A stretch of DNA of 50,721 nt from an uncultured Bacillales bacterium (GCA_946647665.1 CAMPCW010000002.1:1-50721); one strand, 5' to 3'. Shown: positions 5,676-50,721, counted from the first letter of the stretch. Numbers and translations are program-made. Notes: generated by a model not told the origin, from the sequence alone.

Positions 5676-7367
5676 ATGAAATCTAAGAAATTTATTTCTA
5701 TATCAACATTATTTGTTTTTCTTGCTGGTGCAATTGCAGGTTCATTTTCTTTTAAAGAATCTAAATCATTAGCTGTATCTATTGCTGATGCTCCAGAAGA
5801 TTATTATGCTTCTATTGATGAATCAATGACTGGTAATACTCTTTTAGGTAAATTGAAATCCATTATTAATACAAGCAAAGTGGATGTGGATTATGACTGG
5901 TCAAGATATTACGCTGCCGATGAAGACCCTAATAACAATCAAAATGTTATCTTAATTTATGCTAGATATTCTTCTCCAAAGAGTAATAGTGGAGGAGGTA
6001 TTAAAAACTGGAATAGAGAGCATACTTTTCCCCAATCCAAAATTACCTCTGAAAAAGCTAAAAAAGATAATCACATTGTCTATGCTAGCGATAACAAAGT
6101 TAATGGTGCTAGAAGTAGCATTAAAATGGGCTATGTTAAAGATGGATCAGTCGTTAAAGATATGTATGGAAGAGATACAACTTGTCTTAAAACTACTGAT
6201 AGATTTGACCCTCATAATGAAGCTAGAGGAATTGTTGCTAGAAGCACGATGTATGCTGCTGCGATGTATGGCTTTGATCCAGAAGACAATTTTGAAAGTA
6301 TCGAAACAATGCTTGAATGGCATTTAGAATATTCTCCTTCTGCTAACGACATGCGAAGAAATGATGTTGTATATGAAAATCAACACAACAGAAATCCGTT
6401 TGTAGATCATCCAGAATATGCTTGTAGAGTATGGGGCAACGAAAGTGCCGCTACTCAAAAATTATGTAATTCTTATGCTCCAGGAATTTATTTGTCTGAC
6501 GATTCACTTTCTTTATTTGTTGAAGACATGACTACAATTAGTGCTACTACAACTGATAGTTCTGATATTACTTGGACAAACGATAATCCTGATGTTATTA
6601 GTTTAGGTTCTAGTTCTTCTTCATCAGGATCATCAATAACAGTAACTGGTTTATCAGCAGGTACTGCCACAATAACCGCATCTGCAATTGTAGATAATGA
6701 GACGTATACTTCTACATGTGTGGTAGCTGTTTCTAGTAAACCTGTAACTGAATTAACATCAATATCTTTAACTGGAAGTTACAAAACTGAATTTGAACTA
6801 GGTGACTCTTTTACTTGCGATGGACTTGTAGTGAAAGCTAATTATTCTGATAAAACAAGCAGAGAATTATCTAAAGATGAATATAATCTTGTTGAACCTG
6901 ATATGTCTACCACTGGTAGTAAGACTGTAAACATTTCATATACTGAAGACGAGATTACTAAATCAGCTTCCTATAACATTATTGTTATTGATCCTATAAT
7001 TCATGTTTCTTCAATAACATTAAATAAGGATAGTTTAGAACTTTTAGTGAATCAGCAAATGAGGTTAGAAGCTACTGTATTACCTGTTAATGCAGATAAT
7101 AAAGAAGTAATATGGTCTAGTAGCAATGATAATGTTGTAACTGTTTCTTTTATGGGCCTAGTAAGCGCAAAAAGTGTTGGTGAAGCCATAATTGCAGTAA
7201 AAACAGTAGATGGTGGATTGGAAGCCACTTGTACGGTTAGGGTTACTAATCCGCAACCAGCCGGCGGAGGCTGTGGAGGAAACGTTATTACAACGAGTGT
7301 AATTTTAAGTTCTTTAAGTTTGCTCGGTGTAGGTATATTATTATTAAAACGAAAGTTTATTAAATAG
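5676..7367 (+). CDS. Secreted/anchored endonuclease I family nuclease with Big_2 domains and a C-terminal membrane anchor
   Basis: N-terminal signal/TM segment; endonuclease I blocks NREHTFPQS and NRNPFVDHPEY; Ig-like Big_2-type repeats (e.g. EATVLPVNADNKEVIWSSSNDNVVTV ... VKTVDGGLEATCTVRV); tail GGGCGGN + TM + KRKFIK. Confidence 0.8.
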   Translation: MKSKKFISISTLFVFLAGAIAGSFSFKESKSLAVSIADAPEDYYASIDESMTGNTLLGKLKSIINTSKVDVDYDWSRYYAADEDPNNNQNVILIYARYSSPKSNSGGGIKNWNREHTFPQSKITSEKAKKDNHIVYASDNKVNGARSSIKMGYVKDGSVVKDMYGRDTTCLKTTDRFDPHNEARGIVARSTMYAAAMYGFDPEDNFESIETMLEWHLEYSPSANDMRRNDVVYENQHNRNPFVDHPEYACRVWGNESAATQKLCNSYAPGIYLSDDSLSLFVEDMTTISATTTDSSDITWTNDNPDVISLGSSSSSSGSSITVTGLSAGTATITASAIVDNETYTSTCVVAVSSKPVTELTSISLTGSYKTEFELGDSFTCDGLVVKANYSDKTSRELSKDEYNLVEPDMSTTGSKTVNISYTEDEITKSASYNIIVIDPIIHVSSITLNKDSLELLVNQQMRLEATVLPVNADNKEVIWSSSNDNVVTVSFMGLVSAKSVGEAIIAVKTVDGGLEATCTVRVTNPQPAGGGCGGNVITTSVILSSLSLLGVGILLLKRKFIK

Positions 7368-27973: not shown

Positions 27974-30387
27974 ATGAAAAAGACTAAAGCATTATTGCTC
28001 CCAATATTTTCTGTCCCTCTAATTTTAGCGGGATGCGGTTCTACTCCAACTCCAGAGAAAAATTGAACGCTGAATATCAATTAGTTGCTTCTATTGCACC
28101 TAGTAACGCTACAAATTCTACTGTCACTTGGACTAGTAGCAATGAAGAAGCGGTTTATGTCACTAAAAGTGGTTTAGCAAAAGGATTATCAGTAGGTAGT
28201 TCTGTTGTTACTGTTACGACAGTGGATGGCGGATATACTGCAACTTGTAATGTCACTGTTCAAGAAGATAGTATTCCAGTTACTGGTGTATCAGTTACCC
28301 AATCATCTATGAGTTTAGAAGTTGGCGACAAAGTGTATTTAGAAGCAAATATTGAACCTGATTATGCTTCTAATCAAAATTTAACATATTCAAGTAGCAA
28401 TGAAGAATGCGCATCAATTGATTCTAATGGATTAATTACTTCCTTAGCAGTTGGTTCATCCACTATGACTGTTACTACAGTGGATGGAGGATTTACCGCG
28501 ACTTGTGAAGTCACTGTTAGTGAAAAAGAGTCTGGTGGCAGTGAATATGTTCCTACTGAAAGCGATGATATTTTATTTATCACAACTACTGAAGTATCAA
28601 CAGAGCCTATTACTGTTTCTGTTACTGAAAATTACAAACAAATTTATGTTAACGCTCCTGATAACGATGTGGAAATTGAGTTAAATGGGGTGACAATTGA
28701 AAATAGCGAAAATTCACCAATATTTGTTGAAACATGTAACTCTATTGAAATATCTGCGAAAAAGGATACTGTTAATTACATTAAAGATACTCGACCAACA
28801 TATACCGAAGATGATGACGCTCAAGGTAAAGGGGCAATCATGGTCTATGATGGTGATTTGACTTTAAAAGGTAAAGGCGAACTTAATATTAGTGCAAATT
28901 ATTATAATGGTGTGCATGGTAAGGATGATGTTGATATTAAAAACCTCACTTTAAATGCCACATCTGTGAATCATGCAATTAGAGCATCTGATAATCTAAA
29001 CATTGAAAGTGGTACCATTACTATTGTTAGTGGTGGGGATGGCTTAAAAACTACGGGAAGTGGATTATCCAGTAAAGGAAAACAAAAGGGATATATTAAT
29101 ATTTCTGGTGGTAAAATTTCCATTAACTCTTGGACTGATGCGATTTCCGCAGGATATAACGTCGTTACTACTAACGAACCAGAGATTACAATCGCTACTA
29201 ATAAATATTCAACTTATAGTGGCGAAGTTATCGAACCAGATACCACCAATTGTTATTTAAAAGTTCCTTCTACTGTTCGAAGCGAAACTCAAACCGATTA
29301 CACATACGCAGCCTATGTAAATGAAGAATTTATTGAACTTGCTTATGTGAAATTTAAGTCTAGTGATATGGGTGGCGGACCTATGTTTGCTCCAGGTGGT
29401 GGAGGCGGATGGGGCCCTGGTGGAGGTGGATCCTCTAGTGGCAGTTACCATGTTTATAAATTTGAAAAACCAGTATCCGCAACTAGCTTTGTTTTATATC
29501 GATTTGCTGGTGCAAATAACACTAATTTTTCAACCACAAGTTATAATGCCAAAAGTAGTACAGTTTCCTTCAATTCTTCAAAAGATATGATTGCGATTAA
29601 TAGCATTAGTGGTTCGACTATTTCCATGGGTAGTTGGTCTATTTATTCCACTAGTAACACTAATAAAGCCGATGTCTCCGCTAAAGGAATTAAGGGATAT
29701 AACGAAGTTCATATTGAAGGTGGAACAATTTCAATTAACGCTTTTGATGATGGTATTTCTACCCCAGCTTCTACTACTTTAGATAATGGCTTATCTGCAA
29801 CAGGATATGTTTATATTGCTGGTGGAGAAGTTTCTATTAGTTCTGCAGATGATGGAGTTCACGCGAGAACTAACTTATATATTGAAGGTGGCTCACTAAG
29901 TGTTACTAAGGCCTACGAAGGAATCGAAGCCTCTTATATTTATGTTAGTGGTGGAGAAGCCCATGTATTCGCTAGCGATGATGGAGTAAATGCTGGAAAA
30001 GATTTAACAGTCACTGGTGGCTTACTTGATGTTGCTGTTTCTCCTAGTGGAGATACGGACGGCATTGACTCTAATGGCACAATCCATATTCAAGGTGGAG
30101 CTGTTATAGTTAGAGGTCCAAATAGCACAAATATGGCAGCTGTCGATACTGATGACGGAATCACTATTACTGGCGGGACATTAATTGCCTTTGGAAAAAT
30201 TGCTGAAACTCCTAGTAAAACCAGTAACATCACTTTAACAAGTAAATCTGGCACATATTCTAGTGGCAAAACATATAATGTGAGCTTTACTGGTGGTACA
30301 GTTTATAGTTGTGCGATGGGGAATTATTCGTATACTAATTACACTGTTTATTCCTCTTTAGGCACCGCAACTGTGGCACAAGCTTAA
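27974..30387 (+). pseudogene. Surface lipoprotein (2x Big_2 + Cthe_2159-like beta-helix carbohydrate-binding region) split by a frameshift after the signal peptide
   Basis: 27974..28066 encodes MKKTKALLLPIFSVPLILAGCGSTPTPEKN*, a lipobox signal peptide. The 784-aa body is in another frame from 28033 on, and one extra A in the A5 run 28058-28062 would join them. The body has repeated ..GG.I.I...DDGI.A blocks. Confidence 0.65.
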
Positions 30388-45571: not shown

Positions 45572-45597
45572 CTGGCTATTGCCAGTTTTCTTTTTTT
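45572..45597 (+). terminator. Rho-independent terminator after the mscS-like gene
   Basis: CTGGC-TATT-GCCAG followed by TTTTCTTTTTTT. Confidence 0.75.
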
Positions 45598-45611
45598 AAA
45601 AAATTTTTAAC

Positions 45612-45659
45612 TTTTTTTCGCAAGAAATTAAAAAAATCCACTCTTTATATAATGTAGGG
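45612..45659 (+). promoter_or_regulatory. Conserved promoter module, copy B
   Basis: 46/48 identical to 18771-18818; -10 TATAAT at 45648-45653. Confidence 0.6.
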
Positions 45660-45805
45660 ACTTTTATAAGTTTCTATAATCCGAGACTCATCCAAGAGGC
45701 GCACTTTGGATGACTCTAGTGATTTTCTTTCTTCTTCAGTTTCTTTTTATCTAGATCATCTATGCGTTAGATGAGTCGAGGTAGGAGGGAGTTTTAATAT
45801 GAGAA

Positions 45806-45877
45806 ATGATCGTTGCTCTATTTGAGATCATCATAATCCTCTTGATTATAAAAAAAGACCCAAGCGACAAGCGTTAG
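45806..45877 (+). CDS. 23-aa hydrophobic peptide, type-I-toxin-like (copy 1, possibly frameshifted)
   Basis: MIVALFEIIIILLIIKKDPSDKR. The SD AGGAGGG at 45783-45789 is better placed for ATG 45799, which opens only MRNDRCSI*. Confidence 0.4.
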   Translation: MIVALFEIIIILLIIKKDPSDKR

Positions 45878-45890
45878 GGTCCAACCACAT
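45850..45890 (-). ncRNA. Predicted short antisense RNA overlapping the 3' end of peptide gene 1
   Basis: Minus-strand promoter TTGACT-17-TATCTT (plus coordinates 45923..45895), then hairpin GACCC-N15-GGGTC (45857-45881) followed by T7 on the minus strand. Confidence 0.35.
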
Positions 45891-45982
45891 CTAAAAGATA
45901 ACTGAATAACGCTTAAAAGTCAAGTTCTCTAATAGAGTCTTGATTAAATCCTTTGATAGGGCTATTGCCTATTAATAGGAGT

Positions 45983-46011
45983 TTGTCTCGTGGTCTCTTT
46001 GCACTTTTAAT
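45983..46011 (+). promoter_or_regulatory. Putative promoter of peptide gene 2, preceded by the 12-bp palindrome CCTATTAATAGG (45968-45979)
   Basis: TTGTCT-17-TTTAAT. Confidence 0.35.
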
Positions 46012-46053
46012 CATCTATCGTGATGTATCAAAAGGTAGAAAGGTGTGATTATT

Positions 46054-46143
46054 ATGTCTTCTAATAAGATGACAGTAATTATCTTAATTCTAGAAATAGT
46101 GATTTTGATACTTACAGTAATAATAAAAGCCCTAAGCAAGTAA
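46054..46143 (+). CDS. 29-aa hydrophobic peptide, type-I-toxin-like (copy 2)
   Basis: MSSNKMTVIILILEIVILILTVIIKALSK; SD AAAGGTG lies 8 nt upstream. Confidence 0.45.
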   Translation: MSSNKMTVIILILEIVILILTVIIKALSK

Positions 46144-46160
46144 CTAGGGCAACCAACTAA
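46121..46160 (-). ncRNA. Predicted short antisense RNA overlapping the 3' end of peptide gene 2
   Basis: Minus-strand promoter TTGACA-17-TACATT (plus coordinates 46193..46165), then hairpin GCCCTAG-N8-CTAGGGC with one mismatch (46129-46150) followed by TTTTATTATT on the minus strand. Confidence 0.35.
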
Positions 46161-46270
46161 TTATAATGTAGACCACGCGGTTACTAATGTCAACATTAAT
46201 AGTAGCTTTAGATTTATCTAGTTCGCCATTATGGGTAAAATAGGCTACTAATTGACGTAGGAAATCTTTC

Positions 46271-46299
46271 TTTACAAGACTATGAGCGATATGTATAAT
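46271..46299 (+). promoter_or_regulatory. Sigma-A-type promoter of rpsF-ssb-rpsR
   Basis: TTTACA (46271-46276), a 17-nt spacer, then TGTATAAT (extended -10; TATAAT at 46294-46299). Confidence 0.65.
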
Positions 46300-46371
46300 A
46301 CATATGCTAAAGTTAGCAAAACTCTGCTATTAATTAAATTCAATAGCCGTTAGACCAAGGAGGAAAAGAAA

Positions 46372-47472: not shown

Positions 47473-47503
47473 AATTAAGTCGTCCGTAATGGATGGCTTT
47501 TTT
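47473..47503 (+). terminator. Terminator with conserved AATTAAGTCGTC left arm, copy 1
   Basis: AATTAAGTCGTCC-GTAA-TGGATGGCTT + T-run; the stem needs G-U pairs, so it forms only in the + strand RNA. Confidence 0.6.
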
Positions 47504-47553: not shown

Positions 47554-47817
47554 ATGGTGATGAAAAGACATTTGCTTTTAAACAAGATAGCAACAATATC
47601 TTTAATTGTTTTGGCTGCTGCTGGATTTATTGCTGGCTTTGTGTTGGCTTTTTCTTTAAAATCCGTTTATCGTGAAGAGTATCAATACGTAGCTTACTTA
47701 TTATATATCCCAGCGGTTAGTGGAGGTTCGCTTGTTCTTTCTGTCCCAGGGATATTTATTCTTTTGTGGATAAGAAAAGATTATTACGAACTAAACGCTA
47801 AGGTTTCAAAACAATAA
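47554..47817 (+). CDS. Small two-TM membrane protein, unknown function
   Basis: SD TAGGAGA lies upstream; 87 aa; two hydrophobic helices. Confidence 0.5.
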   Translation: MVMKRHLLLNKIATISLIVLAAAGFIAGFVLAFSLKSVYREEYQYVAYLLYIPAVSGGSLVLSVPGIFILLWIRKDYYELNAKVSKQ

Positions 47818-47823
47818 AGCGCA

Positions 47824-47852
47824 AATTAAGTCGTCCATAGTGGCGGCTTTTT
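47824..47852 (+). terminator. Terminator with conserved AATTAAGTCGTC left arm, copy 2
   Basis: AATTAAGTCGTCC-ATAG-TGGCGGCTT + TTTT. Confidence 0.6.
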
Positions 47853-48147: not shown

Positions 48148-48345
48148 ATGTCTAAGGAAACCATTGGACCTAAAATTAAACAATTCAGAAAGAAAAGAAA
48201 ACTGAGTCAAGATGATTTAGCGGAATCTTTAGTGGCACATCCGAAAACTAAATTAACAATAAAACAAGGCTCAGCCCATTATTTCCATACCGAAGAGGAA
48301 AAAGAATTTATCAAGGCTTGGATTCTTAATTCTTTGCATCAATAA
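48148..48345 (+). CDS. XRE-family HTH fragment (probably truncated or remodelled regulator)
   Basis: IGPKIKQFRKKRKLSQDDLAESL matches helices 1-2 of Cro/C1-type HTH domains, but the recognition-helix consensus is missing after LAESL. There is no SD. The partial promoter motif TCCACTCTTATAT lies at 48099-48111. Confidence 0.35.
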   Translation: MSKETIGPKIKQFRKKRKLSQDDLAESLVAHPKTKLTIKQGSAHYFHTEEEKEFIKAWILNSLHQ

Positions 48346-48419
48346 GATAATCTTTGGTATCTCCTTTTAAAAAACATTAATAAGTGTTAATTTATAAATA
48401 AGAAGGGATATGTTGATTT

Positions 48420-49091
48420 ATGGCTACATATAACGCAGAAATAACGCAAAAATTTTTAGATGAGTATAAGACTTTTGAGTATATCGAAGAAAATGATCCT
48501 CATCGATTTGAGATGATAAAAAAACAGCATTATGTTGAATTCAATGCCTTAAGACATATCCGCAACTGCTTGACACATACTCCAAAAGTCAATGGCGATT
48601 TTCCTTTTCATGTCGCTGATTATGTTTTGGAAACACTAGAAGAAATAATAAATAAATTAGTGGTAAAAGCCTACGATGTAGGAATTAAGAAAGATAAAAT
48701 TAAAACATTATCTCCTGACACTGATGTATTACATGCAATGCGCTATATGGATCAGCTACATATTACTAATGTCCCAATCTTTGATGAGAAAGGGTGTGTT
48801 AGATATGTTGTTTCTATGCGAACAATATTCTCTATTCTTGCAAATGCAGAATATGATGAAAATAAATCATATACTATTGAAGATTTAAAAGATAAATTTG
48901 ATATCAATAACAGCAAAGATCTATATTACCTTTTCTTAGCAAAAGACACCTTTGCCTTTGATGCTAAACAATATTTTATCGGCTATAACAATGAACACAA
49001 AAGGTGCGCTTTAATATTTATTACTGAACATGGTTTAAGAAATGAACCTGTATTAGGAATTGTATCTCCTGGAGATGTGTTCAACATTTAA
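48420..49091 (+). CDS. HEPN-like (Rx4H) N-terminal domain fused to a CBS pair
   Basis: ALRHIRNCLTH matches the lR..RN...H form of the HEPN Rx4-6H motif. Two CBS-like repeats follow (IKTLSPDTDVLHAMRYMDQLHITNVPIFDEKGCVRYVVSMRTIF and YLFLAKDTFAFDAKQYF....ALIFITEHGLRNEPVLGIVSPGDVF). Confidence 0.55.
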   Translation: MATYNAEITQKFLDEYKTFEYIEENDPHRFEMIKKQHYVEFNALRHIRNCLTHTPKVNGDFPFHVADYVLETLEEIINKLVVKAYDVGIKKDKIKTLSPDTDVLHAMRYMDQLHITNVPIFDEKGCVRYVVSMRTIFSILANAEYDENKSYTIEDLKDKFDINNSKDLYYLFLAKDTFAFDAKQYFIGYNNEHKRCALIFITEHGLRNEPVLGIVSPGDVFNI

Positions 49092-49118
49092 TTCAGTTGT
49101 CCTTACTGACGGCTTATT

Positions 49119-49157
49119 TGTGGCACATCTGTGACAAACTATCTGATAAGATATATT
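49119..49157 (+). promoter_or_regulatory. Conserved upstream block of mini-protein gene 1
   Basis: TGTGGCACATCTGTGACA-N7-TGATAAGATATA parallels 50240-50279 (TGTGACACATTTGTGACA-N7-TGATAACATATA). Confidence 0.5.
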
Positions 49158-49176
49158 CAATCTTAGGGGGCAAATT

Positions 49177-49461
49177 ATGAAAAAAGAATTATTAAAAGGT
49201 TTAACTAAAGAACAAATTGCAAAAGTTAAGGCCTGTAAAAGTCATGAAGAATTAATGAAACTCGCTAAAAAAGAAGGCGTTGAACTTACTGAAGAGCAAT
49301 TAGCTGTTGTTAGTGGTGGTGGCGCTTGCAGTGTTATTTCAGATATAGGAGACTATATCAATCCAAATGACTGTCCAAGATGTGGTAGCAATAACTTAAA
49401 AGACAAAGGCACCTATTATATCTGCCAAAGCTGTGGCTACAAAATTGAAAACTACGATTAA
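49177..49461 (+). CDS. Mini-protein: Nif11-type double-glycine leader-like N-terminus + C-terminal zinc ribbon
   Basis: MKKELLKGLTKEQIAKVKACKSHEELMKLAKKEGVELTEEQLAVVSGG, then GACSVISDIGDYINPNDCPRCGSNNLKDKGTYYICQSCGYKIENYD; SD AGGGGG. Confidence 0.6.
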   Translation: MKKELLKGLTKEQIAKVKACKSHEELMKLAKKEGVELTEEQLAVVSGGGACSVISDIGDYINPNDCPRCGSNNLKDKGTYYICQSCGYKIENYD

Positions 49462-49473
49462 ATAAACGAGTAT

Positions 49474-49497
49474 AACCGAGTCTAGCTCGGTTTTTTT
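49474..49497 (+). terminator. Rho-independent terminator
   Basis: AACCGAG-TCTAG-CTCGGTT followed by T-run. Confidence 0.8.
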
Positions 49498-49524
49498 ATC
49501 TGCCCAACTCACGGAATTAAAGAC

Positions 49525-49533
49525 TGCTATAAT
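49525..49533 (+). promoter_or_regulatory. Extended -10 promoter (TGCTATAAT) immediately upstream of the NTase start
   Basis: TATAAT at 49528-49533 ends 4 nt before ATG 49538 and 7 nt before ATG 49541. There is no SD, which suggests a leaderless mRNA. Confidence 0.45.
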
Positions 49534-49537
49534 ACTA

Positions 49538-50239
49538 ATGATGCATAAAAATATTAGTAACAATCTAGAAATAGCCCTTGATAAGTTAAATAATTTAGAT
49601 TTTGATTTCCTCATTATTGGTGGGCTTATTTGTAATGCAGTATTAGCTAATCACGCAAGAAGAACATCTGATATCGATCTGATTTGTAATACTGATTTTC
49701 ATAAGTTAGAGGAACTATTAAAAAAAGAATTTGATGTCGTTCGTTTCCTTTATTTTCCTTTAACTAATGAGGCCACAGAAGAATCTTTTTCTTGTTTTGT
49801 AAGAATTAATAACGAGATTATACATATTGAAGGAAGAAGATTTGATATTTTTAATAAGTTTAAAAGAAGTGTTTATCAAATCGGACAATGTACTTTTAAT
49901 GGGGTCAGTGTTGAACTTCAAATTGCCGAGAAAATAATAGCGTTGTTTTCTATTCGAGTTCCATTATATAAACATCTTGTAGATTTGTATTCTTTCTCAA
50001 AATTAAATGATAAATCATTTAACAAAAATGATATCAAAAAGTATTTAAAGATGTTGCTTTCGTATAAAAATAACGTAAAAAAGAAGTTATATTTACCTCT
50101 TATTGATCTCCAACCCCATATTGAAGTAAATAAAGAGTTTGAAGGATCATTGTTACTTCCTTTACAAGCACAATATAACCACAATAAAGAATACATAATT
50201 GAAGAGATTAATAAATGGCTACCTCAATTTATTGAATAA
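49538..50239 (+). CDS. AbiEii/AbiGii-type (DUF1814-like) nucleotidyltransferase
   Basis: FLIIGGLICNAVLANHARRTSDIDLI matches the GG....R.S.DiD NTase block; LQIAEKIIALFSIRVPLYKHLVDLYSF matches the EK..A...R...rDlyDl block. Confidence 0.6.
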   Translation: MMHKNISNNLEIALDKLNNLDFDFLIIGGLICNAVLANHARRTSDIDLICNTDFHKLEELLKKEFDVVRFLYFPLTNEATEESFSCFVRINNEIIHIEGRRFDIFNKFKRSVYQIGQCTFNGVSVELQIAEKIIALFSIRVPLYKHLVDLYSFSKLNDKSFNKNDIKKYLKMLLSYKNNVKKKLYLPLIDLQPHIEVNKEFEGSLLLPLQAQYNHNKEYIIEEINKWLPQFIE

Positions 50240-50279
50240 TGTGACACATTTGTGACAAGTATTTTGATAACATATAGAT
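50240..50279 (+). promoter_or_regulatory. Conserved upstream block of mini-protein gene 2
   Basis: See 49119-49157; it starts directly after the NTase stop codon. Confidence 0.5.
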
Positions 50280-50299
50280 AACAAAGGAGAACTTCGAAC

Positions 50300-50608
50300 A
50301 TGAAAAAAGAATTATTAAAAGGTTTAACAGAAGAACAAATTAAAAAAGTTAGTGCATGCAAAAATACGGACGAATTGCTCGCTTTAGCCAAAGAAGAAGG
50401 ATTTTCTTTAACTGATGAACAATTAGAAGCAGTTAATGGTGGTGGTTGTTTATCCACTAACGCACCTGACGTTTCAAAAACATGTAAAAAATGTGGTAGA
50501 TTAGTAGAAGGTCGTTATATTGGTCGAAAATCATATTATGGCCTTATCTATGAATTTGCGTGTGAATGTGGGTATACTTGGAAAGGCTCCAAAAACGAAG
50601 ATTTATAA
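50300..50608 (+). CDS. Mini-protein paralogue: Nif11-type GG leader-like N-terminus + CxxC...CxC zinc ribbon
   Basis: MKKELLKGLTEEQIKKVSACKNTDELLALAKEEGFSLTDEQLEAVNGG, then GCLSTNAPDVSKTCKKCGRLVEGRYIGRKSYYGLIYEFACECGYTWKGSKNEDL. The first 29 nt of the CDS are identical to 49177..; SD AAAGGAGA. Confidence 0.6.
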   Translation: MKKELLKGLTEEQIKKVSACKNTDELLALAKEEGFSLTDEQLEAVNGGGCLSTNAPDVSKTCKKCGRLVEGRYIGRKSYYGLIYEFACECGYTWKGSKNEDL

Positions 50609-50642
50609 TTTTAAAACATAATTAAAATTGGATATATGTAAC

Positions 50643-50671
50643 AATTAAGTCGTCTACAAGGGCGACTTTTT
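50643..50671 (+). terminator. Terminator with conserved AATTAAGTCGTC left arm, copy 3
   Basis: AATTAAGTCGTC-TACAAGG-GCGACTT + TTTT. Confidence 0.6.
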
Positions 50672-50721
50672 ATTATCGAAACGAAGTGAGATAAAAACCG
50701 GGTGCTATGCACGTGAGAATA

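What the first reader, a model, noticed from the sequence alone, without database searches (positions are those of the whole stretch)
48148..50671. Accessory island: HEPN-CBS protein, AbiEii-type nucleotidyltransferase and two GG-leader/zinc-ribbon mini-proteins (candidate undescribed defence or toxin module)
Seen in sequence: conserved core synteny ends after rpsF-ssb-rpsR, and five + strand genes follow. They are: a truncated-looking XRE HTH (48148..48345); a 223-aa protein with ALRHIRNCLTH (Rx4H) followed by two CBS repeats (48420..49091); a 94-aa mini-protein (49177..49461); a 233-aa protein with the IIGG..RRTSDIDL and EKIIAL..LVDLYSF blocks of AbiEii/AbiGii nucleotidyltransferases (49538..50239); and a 102-aa paralogue of the mini-protein (50300..50608). 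Established knowledge: HEPN RNases and nucleotidyltransferases pair up in HEPN/MNT and AbiE toxin-antitoxin or abortive-infection systems, and CBS pairs bind adenine nucleotides. Inference: this is not canonical AbiE, because there is no AbiEi winged-helix antitoxin. It is not canonical HEPN-MNT, because the NTase is AbiEii-type and the HEPN carries a ligand-sensor pair. It is not a canonical RiPP or bacteriocin locus, because no C39-peptidase ABC exporter or modifying enzyme lies in the window (the window ends at 50721). A nucleotide-sensing HEPN RNase working with an NTase, with zinc-ribbon mini-proteins as third components, would be a new architecture.
Basis: partly seen in the sequence, partly recalled or inferred. 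Interest (0 to 1): 0.85.

Follow-up and report, generated by a model that had tools for sequence, protein, structure and literature searches.

The report
NTase–peptide pair among exported zinc-ribbon peptides
The five genes are real but are not one defence module: two belong to a very large, unnamed family of exported zinc-ribbon peptides from uncultured rumen bacteria, one of which is always paired with an AbiEii-type nucleotidyltransferase, and the CBS protein and XRE fragment are unrelated neighbours.

Summary
All five ORFs are at the stated coordinates. The domain calls mostly hold: CBS pair, AbiEii-type NTase with intact catalytic motifs, Nif11-type double-glycine leaders, 4-Cys zinc ribbons. 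HEPN is plausible but unproven: RNxxxH is invariant at the end of helix 3, yet no profile or fold match is significant.

The four-gene unit is not conserved. The CBS gene occurs alone elsewhere and is missing from most NTase loci. The XRE ORF is a remnant of a 286-aa gene. Mini-94 is one of about 15 paralogues per genome.

The conserved unit is NTase plus the 102-aa-type peptide: 26 of 26 contigs, with NTase identity down to 34%. The peptides form a family of at least 3,318 clusters. Nearly every gene has the same direct-repeat promoter. In relatives that promoter also precedes the NTase and a C39-peptidase ABC exporter operon (one locus); a second locus has an exporter beside a radical-SAM enzyme.

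Best reading: a dispersed, co-regulated exported-peptide regulon. One peptide subfamily is hard-wired to an NTase that acts on it (favoured) or is restrained by it (toxin–antitoxin-like). This is a new variant of known kinds, not a HEPN–NTase defence system.

The parts
48148..48345 (+). Remnant of an XRE-family HTH gene; not part of the system.
   Evidence: Pfam HTH_19/HTH_3 match only profile positions 1-25. L014 has a full 286-aa HTH_3 + hydrolase-like gene whose first ~28 residues closely match this ORF.
48420..49091 (+). Stand-alone 223-aa protein: N-terminal four-helix domain with an invariant RNxxxH (HEPN-like, unproven) plus a C-terminal CBS pair. An independent neighbour.
   Evidence: CBS E 5.5e-9. 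AlphaFold pLDDT 87 and CBS-pair fold matches. The family has 54 clusters with the same architecture, and R48, N49, H53 are the only invariant residues in the N-terminal domain. No significant HEPN match. It occurs without the NTase or minis in L002-L005.
49095..49114 (+). Terminator-like hairpin after the CBS gene.
49119..49152 (+). Regulon promoter of mini-94: direct repeat TGTGGCACATCTGTGACA plus an extended -10-like TGATAAGAT.
   Evidence: The motif occurs only twice in the 50.7-kb window against 0.08 expected. The same element lies 41-42 nt before the ATG of nearly all family members. Coordinates checked.
49177..49461 (+). Mini-94: 48-aa Nif11-type double-glycine leader plus a 46-aa 4-Cys zinc-ribbon core. 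One of many paralogues; not linked to the NTase.
   Evidence: A near-identical core lies ~7 kb upstream of the NTase in L012, and the gene is absent in L014.
49474..49492 (+). Intrinsic terminator after mini-94.
49525..49533 (+). Extended -10 (TGCTATAAT) 4 nt before the NTase ATG. Probably the NTase's own promoter, giving a near-leaderless mRNA (inferred).
   Evidence: Conserved in L006, L014 and L016; L034 reads TGGTATAAT at the same position.
49538..50239 (+). AbiEii/DUF1814-type nucleotidyltransferase, 233 aa.
   Evidence: PF08843 26 bits against cut-off 22.5, matched by 13 of 13 homologues. PADLOC AbiEii E 5e-6. GG28-29, D45, D47, K132, K145, H146 and D149 are invariant down to 34% identity.
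50240..50273 (+). Regulon promoter of mini-102, starting at the base after the NTase stop codon. There is no terminator between the two genes.
50300..50608 (+). Mini-102: the NTase-linked subfamily of GG-leader zinc-ribbon peptides, the cognate partner of the NTase.
   Evidence: It lies directly downstream of the NTase in 26 of 26 contigs. Core invariants are C62, C65, G71, G81, Y84, C88, C90 and W94. The core resembles TFIIS/Rpb9-type zinc ribbons (PDB E 3e-4).
50647..50668 (+). Intrinsic terminator that closes the NTase-mini-102 unit.

Best explanation
The region is a mosaic downstream of rpsF-ssb-rpsR, not one module.

(1) The XRE ORF is a gene remnant.

(2) The 223-aa protein is an independent, ligand-sensing CBS-pair protein with a HEPN-like RNxxxH domain.

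(3) The two mini-proteins are precursors from a very large family specific to uncultured rumen Bacilli. Each has a 48-aa Nif11-type double-glycine leader followed by a hypervariable 4-Cys zinc-ribbon core.
- Each gene is transcribed from its own copy of a shared promoter, with the repeat TGTGRC-N5-TGTGAC in the -35 position. An OmpR/PhoB-type activator is inferred.
- The precursors are cleaved after GG and exported by a C39-peptidase ABC transporter encoded elsewhere in the genome. Cleavage and export are inferred; the exporter was seen only in relatives.

(4) The only hard-wired unit is the AbiEii-type NTase plus the mini-102-type peptide.
- They can be co-transcribed, because no terminator separates them.
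- They have co-diverged from a common ancestral pair.
- In other clades both sit under the regulon promoter.

I commit to a specific physical enzyme-peptide partnership. My favoured mechanism, at about 0.3, is that the cytoplasmic NTase nucleotidylylates the conserved core of its cognate precursor before export. A close second, at about 0.3, is that the precursor binds and restrains a MenT-like toxic NTase.

Shown: gene content, co-occurrence, promoter sharing, and conservation of motifs. Inferred: export, zinc binding, the regulator, and any NTase chemistry.

The confidence given (0.55) is for the overall picture in points 1-4, that is, a mosaic with an exported-peptide regulon and an obligate NTase-peptide pair. 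It is not for the specific NTase chemistry.
For: Not a unit:
- CBS homologues stand alone.
- NTase loci lack the CBS gene.
- The XRE ORF is a remnant and mini-94 is variably present.

Peptide family:
- The profile finds 3,318 clusters, all about 89-104 aa, none with a functional name (three JGI labels only: transposase-like, DUF1610 Zn-ribbon, hypothetical).
- GG is invariant, and V at -4, L at -7 and L at -12 match the determinants read by the LahT C39 domain (PMC6363468).
- Arrays of 8-15 paralogues occur in single loci.

Shared promoter:
- Only 2 hits in the window against 0.08 expected.
- In the 80 new loci, about 76 of 85 hits precede minis.
- The motif also precedes the NTase (L012/13, L017-19, L021, L028-33, L044), the accessory + C39 PCAT operon (L012), and a hybrid histidine-kinase operon (L026).

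Exporter and maturase: L061 has radical SAM/SPASM, a 130-aa protein and a C39 PCAT, with PF03412 at E 1e-30.

NTase-peptide pair:
- 26 of 26 NTase contigs with downstream sequence carry the peptide. The NTase-type peptide P0121 has the NTase upstream in all 6 places shown, which stand for 11 contigs.
- NTase catalytic residues and the peptide's core residues are invariant across 34% identity.
- The partner keeps its full leader and GG.
Against: - No exporter or maturase is on this contig or within 10 kb in the closest relative. Export is therefore inferred from other genomes of the lineage.
- The Nif11 profile scores for the two window peptides fall just below the curated cut-offs.
- No AbiEii/DUF1814 enzyme is known to modify a peptide. 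Characterised members are tRNA-modifying toxins (PMC11375011).
- Only about 1 paralogue in 15-30 has an NTase, so the NTase is not a general maturase.
- In the window clade the NTase has its own promoter rather than the regulon motif.
- No structure or complex prediction was available for the NTase or the pair.
Confidence: 0.55

Rival explanations
1. Toxin-antitoxin-like pair. The NTase is a MenT/AbiEii-type toxin that nucleotidylylates tRNA 3' ends. The mini-102 precursor is its neutralising partner, recruited from the abundant peptide family. Export or cleavage by the PCAT would make the antitoxin labile.
For: - The family precedent is that DUF1814 NTases are toxins with diverse, sometimes tiny, antitoxins; MenA1 is 7.4 kDa (PMC11375011).
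- The NTase is never seen without the peptide (26 of 26 contigs).
- The peptide has a strong ribosome-binding site and an extra promoter, whereas the NTase has none, so the partner would be in excess.
- There are two possible cases of NTase decay with an intact partner: L059/L060 (a 30-codon remnant) and L034 (a 1-nt insertion).
Against: - The gene order is the reverse of AbiE and MenAT.
- The partner keeps a fully conserved export leader and GG.
- The NTase is co-induced from the regulon promoter in several clades.
- The position next to rpsR is stable across clades, and the genes are absent from viral contigs.
- The decay cases are weak: L059/L060 break at a junction with GC-rich DNA and could be chimeric, and the L034 change lies in a homopolymer.
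Confidence: 0.28
2. Immunity or resistance enzyme. The NTase protects the producer by inactivating its cognate, self-toxic peptide, or by modifying that peptide's target, as antibiotic nucleotidyltransferases do.
For: - One-to-one pairing of a specific core with an adjacent gene is typical of bacteriocin-immunity pairs.
- Twelve of 13 NTases have weak hits to ANT(2'') PF10706.
- The NTase is expressed from a constitutive-like promoter in the window clade and from the regulon promoter elsewhere.
Against: - Orphan immunity genes are common in bacteriocin loci, but the NTase is never found without the peptide. The only asymmetric cases go the other way.
- The other ~14 paralogues per genome have no such partner.
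- The ANT hits are sub-threshold and reflect the shared NTase core.
Confidence: 0.08
3. One reading: a four-component defence or toxin module in which a nucleotide-sensing HEPN-CBS RNase works with the AbiEii NTase and the zinc-ribbon minis.
For: - The genes are adjacent in the window and its closest relatives (L006, L007, L014, L016, L034).
- RNxxxH is invariant in the CBS family.
- HEPN-NTase pairing has precedent in HepT/MntA.
Against: - The CBS gene and the NTase do not co-occur outside one shallow clade.
- Terminators separate CBS, mini-94 and NTase-mini-102 into separate transcription units.
- No PADLOC hit for the CBS protein.
- None of the genes is found on viral contigs.
Confidence: 0.04
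4. No functional link. The NTase and mini-102 are neighbours only through inherited synteny in a narrow lineage.
For: All loci come from one uncultured lineage of rumen Bacilli, so the phylogenetic independence of the observations is limited.
Against: Adjacency survives divergence to 34% identity, changes of flanking genes, an inversion relative to rpsR (L020) and promoter turnover. The partner's core is conserved while other paralogues are hypervariable.
Confidence: 0.07

Closest known systems
Nif11-type double-glycine leader peptides processed by PCAT/AMS transporters (prochlorosins; LahA1-9/LahT of Lachnospiraceae C6A11; Haft 2010; PMC6363468)
   Same: A long, conserved helical leader ends in GG, with hydrophobic residues at -4, -7 and -12. 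Many paralogues per genome carry hypervariable cores. One shared C39-peptidase ABC exporter is encoded elsewhere.
   Different: The cores are ~45-54-aa 4-Cys zinc ribbons of TFIIS/Rpb9 type, not lanthipeptide substrates. No LanM is present. The genes are dispersed, each with its own copy of a direct-repeat promoter. The window peptides score just under the curated profile cut-offs.
AbiE (AbiEi/AbiEii) type IV toxin-antitoxin / abortive infection and the MenAT systems
   Same: The NTase matches PF08843 and keeps the GG, DxD and K...D motifs. It is strictly paired with one small adjacent gene.
   Different: There is no AbiEi/COG5340 wHTH antitoxin. The partner is downstream, carries an export leader and belongs to a secreted-peptide family. 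The locus is chromosomal, syntenic and part of a peptide regulon.
Quorum-regulated class II bacteriocin regulons (blp, pln, com)
   Same: Multiple GG-leader peptide genes, the exporter operon and a histidine-kinase operon all share one direct-repeat promoter element.
   Different: The repeat is a hexamer with an 11-bp period (OmpR/PhoB-like by my reading), not 9-bp LytTR repeats. The kinase is a hybrid HK with an SBP, an Hpt and a GGDEF-EAL regulator. The peptides are zinc ribbons. No membrane immunity genes are evident.
HepT/MntA (HEPN/MNT) type VII toxin-antitoxin
   Same: An NTase-fold enzyme that acts on its own protein partner by AMPylation is a precedent for the favoured mechanism. A HEPN-like gene is nearby.
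   Different: The NTase is AbiEii-type, not a minimal MNT. The HEPN-like CBS gene does not co-occur with it.
HEPN-CBS(-HD) fusions listed by Anantharaman et al. 2013 (PMC3710099)
   Same: An RNxxxH motif at the end of helix 3 of a four-helix domain is fused to nucleotide-sensing CBS domains. That survey proposed ligand-regulated RNA cleavage.
   Different: This family has no significant match to any HEPN profile or structure, has no HD domain, and is a compact 210-236-aa stand-alone protein.

Membership tests
AbiE type IV TA (AbiEi/AbiEii) | DUF1814/AbiEii NTase profile match | tested here: met
   PF08843 scores 26.0 bits against a cut-off of 22.5. All 13 homologues match, best E 9e-7. PADLOC AbiEii E 5e-6.
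AbiE type IV TA (AbiEi/AbiEii) | Conserved NTase motifs (hGG, DxD, catalytic K and D) | tested here: met
   G28, G29, D45, D47, K132, K145, H146 and D149 are invariant down to 34% identity.
AbiE type IV TA (AbiEi/AbiEii) | Cognate AbiEi (COG5340 wHTH) antitoxin gene adjacent | tested here: not met
   No such gene is present in the window or in any of the 26 NTase contigs. Upstream neighbours vary.
AbiE type IV TA (AbiEi/AbiEii) | Toxicity, GTP binding or tRNA modification, phage abortive infection | not testable with these tools
   Needs experiments.
HEPN superfamily | Rx4-6H motif with a polar residue after R | tested here: met
   R48, N49 and H53 are invariant in 47 family representatives sharing 20-50% identity.
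HEPN superfamily | All-alpha four-helix domain with the motif at the end of helix 3 | tested here: met
   The AlphaFold model has helices 6-25, 27-36, 38-53 and 67-87, and the motif spans residues 48-53. The criterion comes from PMC3710099. This is a predicted model only.
HEPN superfamily | Significant profile or fold match to a HEPN family | tested here: not met
   Best Pfam hits are sub-threshold: HepT-like E 0.061, HEPN_Swt1 0.054-0.085, DUF4145 0.013, pEK499_p136 0.036. Best Foldseek match to the PDB is E 2.5. The PDB profile search found no HEPN protein.
HEPN/MNT (HepT/MntA) TA | HEPN and NTase genes co-occur as a pair | tested here: not met
   The CBS/HEPN-like gene is found alone. NTase loci lack it outside one shallow clade.
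CBS pair (Bateman module) | CBS profile and two-repeat fold | tested here: met
   PF00571 scores 36.7 bits against a cut-off of 24. Foldseek matches MJ0922, CBSX2, AMPK gamma, AcuB and DarB at E 4e-7 to 1e-5.
Nif11-type double-glycine leader peptides (PF07862/TIGR03798) | GG at -2/-1 with hydrophobic residues at -4, -7 and -12 | tested here: met
   V at -4, L at -7, L at -12 and G47-G48 in both window peptides. GG is invariant in the family. The criterion comes from PMC6363468.
Nif11-type double-glycine leader peptides (PF07862/TIGR03798) | Profile score above the curated cut-off | tested here: inconclusive
   PF07862 scores 23.3 and 23.4 against 23.8. TIGR03798 scores 16.6 and 25.2 against 32.3. 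Some family members carry a precomputed PF07862 hit.
Nif11-type double-glycine leader peptides (PF07862/TIGR03798) | C39-peptidase ABC exporter in the same genome | tested here: inconclusive
   None in the window or within 10 kb in L006. Present in the related loci L012 and L061; in L012 the operon has the same promoter motif. The window's own genome is incomplete.
Nif11-type double-glycine leader peptides (PF07862/TIGR03798) | Multi-copy precursors with a conserved leader and hypervariable cores | tested here: met
Zinc ribbon (TFIIS/Rpb9 C-terminal type) | CxxC...CxxC knuckles and a profile match | tested here: inconclusive
   The four Cys are invariant. PDB Rpb9 matches at E 3e-4. Zn_Ribbon_TF scores 25.3 bits against a cut-off of 29. 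Metal binding was not tested.
RiPP (post-translationally modified peptide) | Modifying enzyme linked to the precursor | tested here: inconclusive
   There is no classical maturase in the window. A radical SAM/SPASM gene in L061 sits beside a short-core peptide of the same leader family. The NTase is a candidate tailoring enzyme only by inference.
XRE-family HTH regulator | Complete helix-turn-helix domain | tested here: not met
   Only profile positions 1-25 of 55-64 are matched. The full-length orthologue is in L014.

The most novel reading that the evidence does not exclude
An AbiEii/MenT-type nucleotidyltransferase has an obligate partner that is an exported, PCAT-cleaved zinc-ribbon peptide belonging to a quorum-like regulon. 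There are two possible forms. In the first, the NTase creates a nucleotidylylated peptide, which would be a new RiPP chemistry. In the second, export of the peptide acts as the labile-antitoxin step that gates a toxic NTase, which would be a new hybrid of toxin-antitoxin and secretion. In either case the thousands of TFIIS-like zinc-ribbon cores would be a new class of secreted bacterial effectors or signals.
Probability: 0.3. Interest if true: 0.85.

Novelty: new variant of a known kind. Interest (0 to 1): 0.58.

Why it matters
The work replaces a speculative four-gene defence module with a better-supported picture.

- **A large undescribed peptide family.** At least 3,318 clusters at 90% identity encode double-glycine-leader zinc-ribbon peptides in uncultured rumen Bacilli, none with a functional name. 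They come with a recognisable promoter element that defines their regulon (peptides, exporter, kinase operon, secreted proteins).
- **A new partner for AbiEii-type NTases.** These enzymes are so far known only as tRNA-targeting toxins. Here one is hard-wired to a secreted-peptide precursor. If the enzyme modifies or is gated by the peptide, this would extend both toxin-antitoxin and RiPP biology.
- **Practical value.** The family is easy to mine, because the leader and promoter are nearly invariant. It could yield new antimicrobial or signalling peptides from the rumen.

Tried and rejected
- HEPN tests gave no significant support. I tried Pfam on the whole protein, on the N-terminal fragment and on 47 family members, a separate AlphaFold model of the N-terminal domain with a PDB fold search, and a PDB profile search. 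The only hits were a spurious XPD/Rad3 stretch and sub-threshold HEPN-clan matches.
- PADLOC found nothing for the CBS protein or mini-102. It gave only a weak HEC-08 hit (E 2.8e-4) for mini-94, which I treat as noise.
- A sigma-54 promoter for the TGGCAC-containing motif is rejected. Many copies read TGTGACAC, which loses the GG, and the -12 element would be GAC rather than TTGC.
- LytTR-type repeats are rejected because the spacing is 11 bp, not 21 bp.
- Lipoprotein processing of the GG-x-C site is rejected because the leader has no hydrophobic signal segment.
- A search of JGI metagenomes for relatives of the L012 exporter accessory protein found nothing.
- Viral contigs contain neither the NTase nor the minis.
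- Rfam finds nothing in the window.
- My impression that the 397-398-aa protein next to the exporter is HipA-like was not confirmed by Pfam.
- Source databases give these proteins no functional names.
- Three literature searches found no description of GG-leader zinc-ribbon peptides or of AbiEii enzymes linked to peptides.

Full report
**Observation.**
The window is a complete 50,721-bp metagenome scaffold from a sheep-rumen data set, so nothing lies beyond its end.
- Profile searches confirm a CBS domain (PF00571, E 5.5e-9) and an AbiEii-type NTase (PF08843, 26.0 bits against a cut-off of 22.5; PADLOC AbiEii E 5e-6).
- Both mini-proteins have near-threshold Nif11 leader matches (23.3 and 23.4 bits against 23.8; TIGR03798 E 1.5e-5 for mini-102).
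- Mini-94 has a zinc-ribbon match (E 1.1e-5).
- The first ORF matches only the first third of an HTH profile.
- No C39 exporter or maturase is encoded anywhere in the window, which is otherwise core chromosome (secA, uvrB, dnaX, typA, rpsF-ssb-rpsR).

**The CBS protein.**
An AlphaFold model (pLDDT 87) shows a four-helix N-terminal domain and a C-terminal CBS pair. The CBS pair matches MJ0922, CBSX2, AMPK gamma, AcuB and DarB structures at E 4e-7 to 1e-5.

An exhaustive HMMER search with the N-terminal domain found only 54 representative clusters. Nearly all are 210-236 aa, so the architecture is fixed. Across 47 of them (20-50% identity) the only invariant residues in the N-terminal domain are R48, N49 and H53, with R45 and L51 nearly invariant. 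In the model this RNxxxH sits at the end of helix 3, before the loop to helix 4. That is where the HEPN survey places the Rx4-6H active site, and the survey also notes a polar residue after the R (PMC3710099).

No HEPN profile or structure matches significantly, however. The best Pfam E-values are 0.01-0.09 for DUF4145, pEK499_p136, Swt1 and HepT. Foldseek on the isolated domain gives a best E of 2.5, and the PDB profile search finds no HEPN protein. I rate HEPN membership at about 0.65. The same survey already listed HEPN-CBS fusions, so the architecture is not new.

**The four-gene block is not a unit.**
- CBS-family genes occur alone in unrelated contexts. L005 (89% identical) reads rpsF-ssb/rpsR-CBS-DNA alkylation repair-lipase. 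L002/L003 and L004 are different again.
- The NTase has few homologues: 12 in 5.8 billion proteins and 8 loci in GTDB genomes. All are from uncultured rumen 'Bacillales/Bacilli/Erysipelotrichaceae' MAGs such as UBA2450, UBA7029 and RUG14566.
- The CBS gene is next to the NTase only in the window's closest relatives (L006, L007, L014, L016, L034). It is absent in L008-L013, L015, L017-L021 and L028-L033.
- L014 carries a full 286-aa XRE-HTH/hydrolase-like gene whose N-terminus closely matches the window's 65-aa ORF, which is therefore a remnant. L014 also lacks mini-94.
- Terminator-like hairpins follow CBS, mini-94 and mini-102, but none separates the NTase from mini-102.

**The conserved unit.**
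In every NTase contig with downstream sequence (26 contigs, at least five sequence clades, identity to the window NTase 34-92%) the next gene, 30-60 nt away, is a mini-protein of one subfamily.

The converse also holds. The NTase-type peptide P0121 has the NTase directly upstream in all 6 places shown, which stand for 11 contigs.

This subfamily has a conserved core (C62, C65, G71, G81, Y84, C88, C90, W94), unlike the hypervariable cores of other paralogues. It keeps the full leader and GG. The NTase keeps GG28-29, D45, D47, K132, K145, H146 and D149 throughout.

Two asymmetric cases exist. In L059/L060 the peptide is intact but only the last 30 NTase codons remain, at a junction with GC-rich DNA. 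In L034 the NTase has a 1-nt insertion in an A-run. Both could be assembly artefacts, so I give them little weight. The NTase is never seen without the peptide.

**The peptide family.**
A profile of 22 minis retrieves 3,318 clusters at 90% identity. Those listed are 89-118 aa (most under about 104) and none has a functional name. All have a 48-aa leader (consensus MKKELLKGLTEEQIAKVKACKN.EELLALAKEEGVELT.EQL.AVSGG), then a Cys within 1-4 residues, then CxxC...CxxC.

V at -4, L at -7 and L at -12 are the residues that the LahT C39 domain reads in Nif11-type leaders (PMC6363468). The NTase-linked cores are most similar to the TFIIS/Rpb9 C-terminal zinc ribbon (PDB E 3e-4).

Single loci hold 8-15 paralogues (L012, L026, L061). 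In 80 further metagenome loci there are 189 minis but only 5-6 of the NTase type. Neither the NTase nor the minis occur on viral contigs.

**A shared promoter ties the pieces together.**
Both window minis are preceded by TGTGRCAC-N3-TGTGACA followed by TGATAAsAT, at 49119-49152 and 50240-50273. These are the only two matches in the window, against 0.08 expected. The same element, at a fixed 41-42 nt from the ATG, precedes nearly all family members. It also precedes:
- the NTase itself in L012/L013, L017-L019, L021, L028-L033 and L044, where NTase-mini is then a single operon;
- the accessory + C39 PCAT operon in L012;
- a hybrid histidine-kinase/SBP/GGDEF-EAL/Hpt operon in L026, L027 and L071;
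- several signal-peptide proteins.

L061 shows a full cluster: mini array, a 398-aa protein, a short-core peptide with the same leader, radical SAM/SPASM (PF04055 E 1.8e-21, PF13186), a 130-aa protein, and a C39 PCAT (PF03412 E 1e-30).

The hexamer repeat with an 11-bp period, sitting in the -35 position, resembles OmpR/PhoB-family boxes such as WalR and PhoP. That is my inference and was not tested. In the window clade the NTase instead has its own TGCTATAAT 4-7 nt before the ATG.

**Mechanism.**
Shown: gene content, strict pairing, co-divergence, promoter sharing, and an exporter and maturase in relatives.
Inferred: cleavage and export of the minis, zinc binding, the regulator, and the NTase chemistry.

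Because the partner keeps a fully conserved export leader and the NTase is co-regulated with the regulon in several clades, I favour a cytoplasmic NTase acting on the core of its cognate precursor before export (about 0.3). NTase-fold enzymes that nucleotidylylate proteins are known (GlnE; MntA on HepT; my own knowledge).

The family precedent gives a toxin-antitoxin-like reading almost equal weight (about 0.28). AbiEii and MenT are tRNA-targeting toxins with diverse small antitoxins (PMC11375011).

**Novelty and verdict.**
Double-glycine peptides with PCAT exporters, AbiEii NTases and HEPN-CBS fusions are each known. What is new is the very large zinc-ribbon-core family with its own promoter signature, and the obligate coupling of an AbiEii-type NTase to one subfamily of exported peptides. 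Three literature searches and the source annotations gave no prior description.

The finding as written is partly supported. I classify it as a new variant of known kinds, of moderate to good interest.

Noticed in passing
window 49119-49152 and 50240-50273; L012, L022, L024, L026, L061 and others: A direct-repeat promoter element (TGTGRC-N5-TGTGAC plus TGATAAsAT, fixed at 41-42 nt before the ATG) defines a regulon. Its members are the minis, the NTase in some clades, a C39 PCAT operon, a hybrid histidine-kinase operon and several secreted proteins. The regulator is unknown.
   Followed up: partly
L061 12543-18036: A cluster of a 398-aa protein, a short-core peptide with the same leader (core GCDNTKPKKKIIED), radical SAM/SPASM, a 130-aa membrane protein and a C39 PCAT. 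Similar short-core peptides occur in L012 (18624-18842) and L022. These may be the modified signal peptide of the regulon.
   Followed up: partly
window 49234-49236 and 50357-50359 (leader Cys20); first Cys after GG at 49327-49329 and 50447-50449: A Cys inside the leader (ACK) and a fifth Cys 1-4 residues after the GG site are nearly invariant across the whole family. This is unexplained. They could form a disulfide, act as an extra metal ligand, or be a modification site.
   Followed up: no
window 47477-47499, 47828-47849, 50647-50668: Three intrinsic terminators share the same 5' arm (AAGTCGTCy). This may be a lineage-specific repeated terminator element.
   Followed up: no
window 47554-47817: An 87-aa ORF with two predicted hydrophobic segments lies between rpsR and the XRE remnant. 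It matches no family, and no gene is called at the equivalent place in L006.
   Followed up: no
window 45572-46371: About 800 nt upstream of rpsF contain no substantial ORF, and Rfam finds nothing at gathering thresholds.
   Followed up: partly
L014 957-1928; L020 8461-9432; L028 1-208: A Fic/DOC-HTH gene lies close to the NTase-peptide cassette in three different clades. The spot next to rpsR looks like a hotspot for accessory genes.
   Followed up: partly
L012 2849-3930; L024 8020-9101: A Phd/YefM antitoxin gene followed by a ParE-GNAT fusion gene is embedded in the mini arrays. GNAT acetyltransferases recur beside the arrays in L012, L013 and L026.
   Followed up: no
window 49525-49543: The NTase has an extended -10 (TGCTATAAT) only 4 nt (7 nt in relatives) before a double ATG and has no Shine-Dalgarno sequence. 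This suggests a leaderless, weakly translated mRNA, in contrast to the strong AAAGGAGAA site of the minis.
   Followed up: no
L059 and L060 (for example L060 1320-1560): The NTase is cut to its last 30 codons at an abrupt junction with GC-rich DNA. That DNA carries a divergent mini gene with its own promoter motif. This is either recombination with a higher-GC relative or a chimeric assembly.
   Followed up: partly
window 5676-7367 and 28033-30387: Two large proteins with Big_2 Ig-like repeats that look secreted but whose export was not checked: an Endonuclease I fusion and a Cthe_2159-type carbohydrate-binding protein. Both are unrelated to the finding.
   Followed up: no
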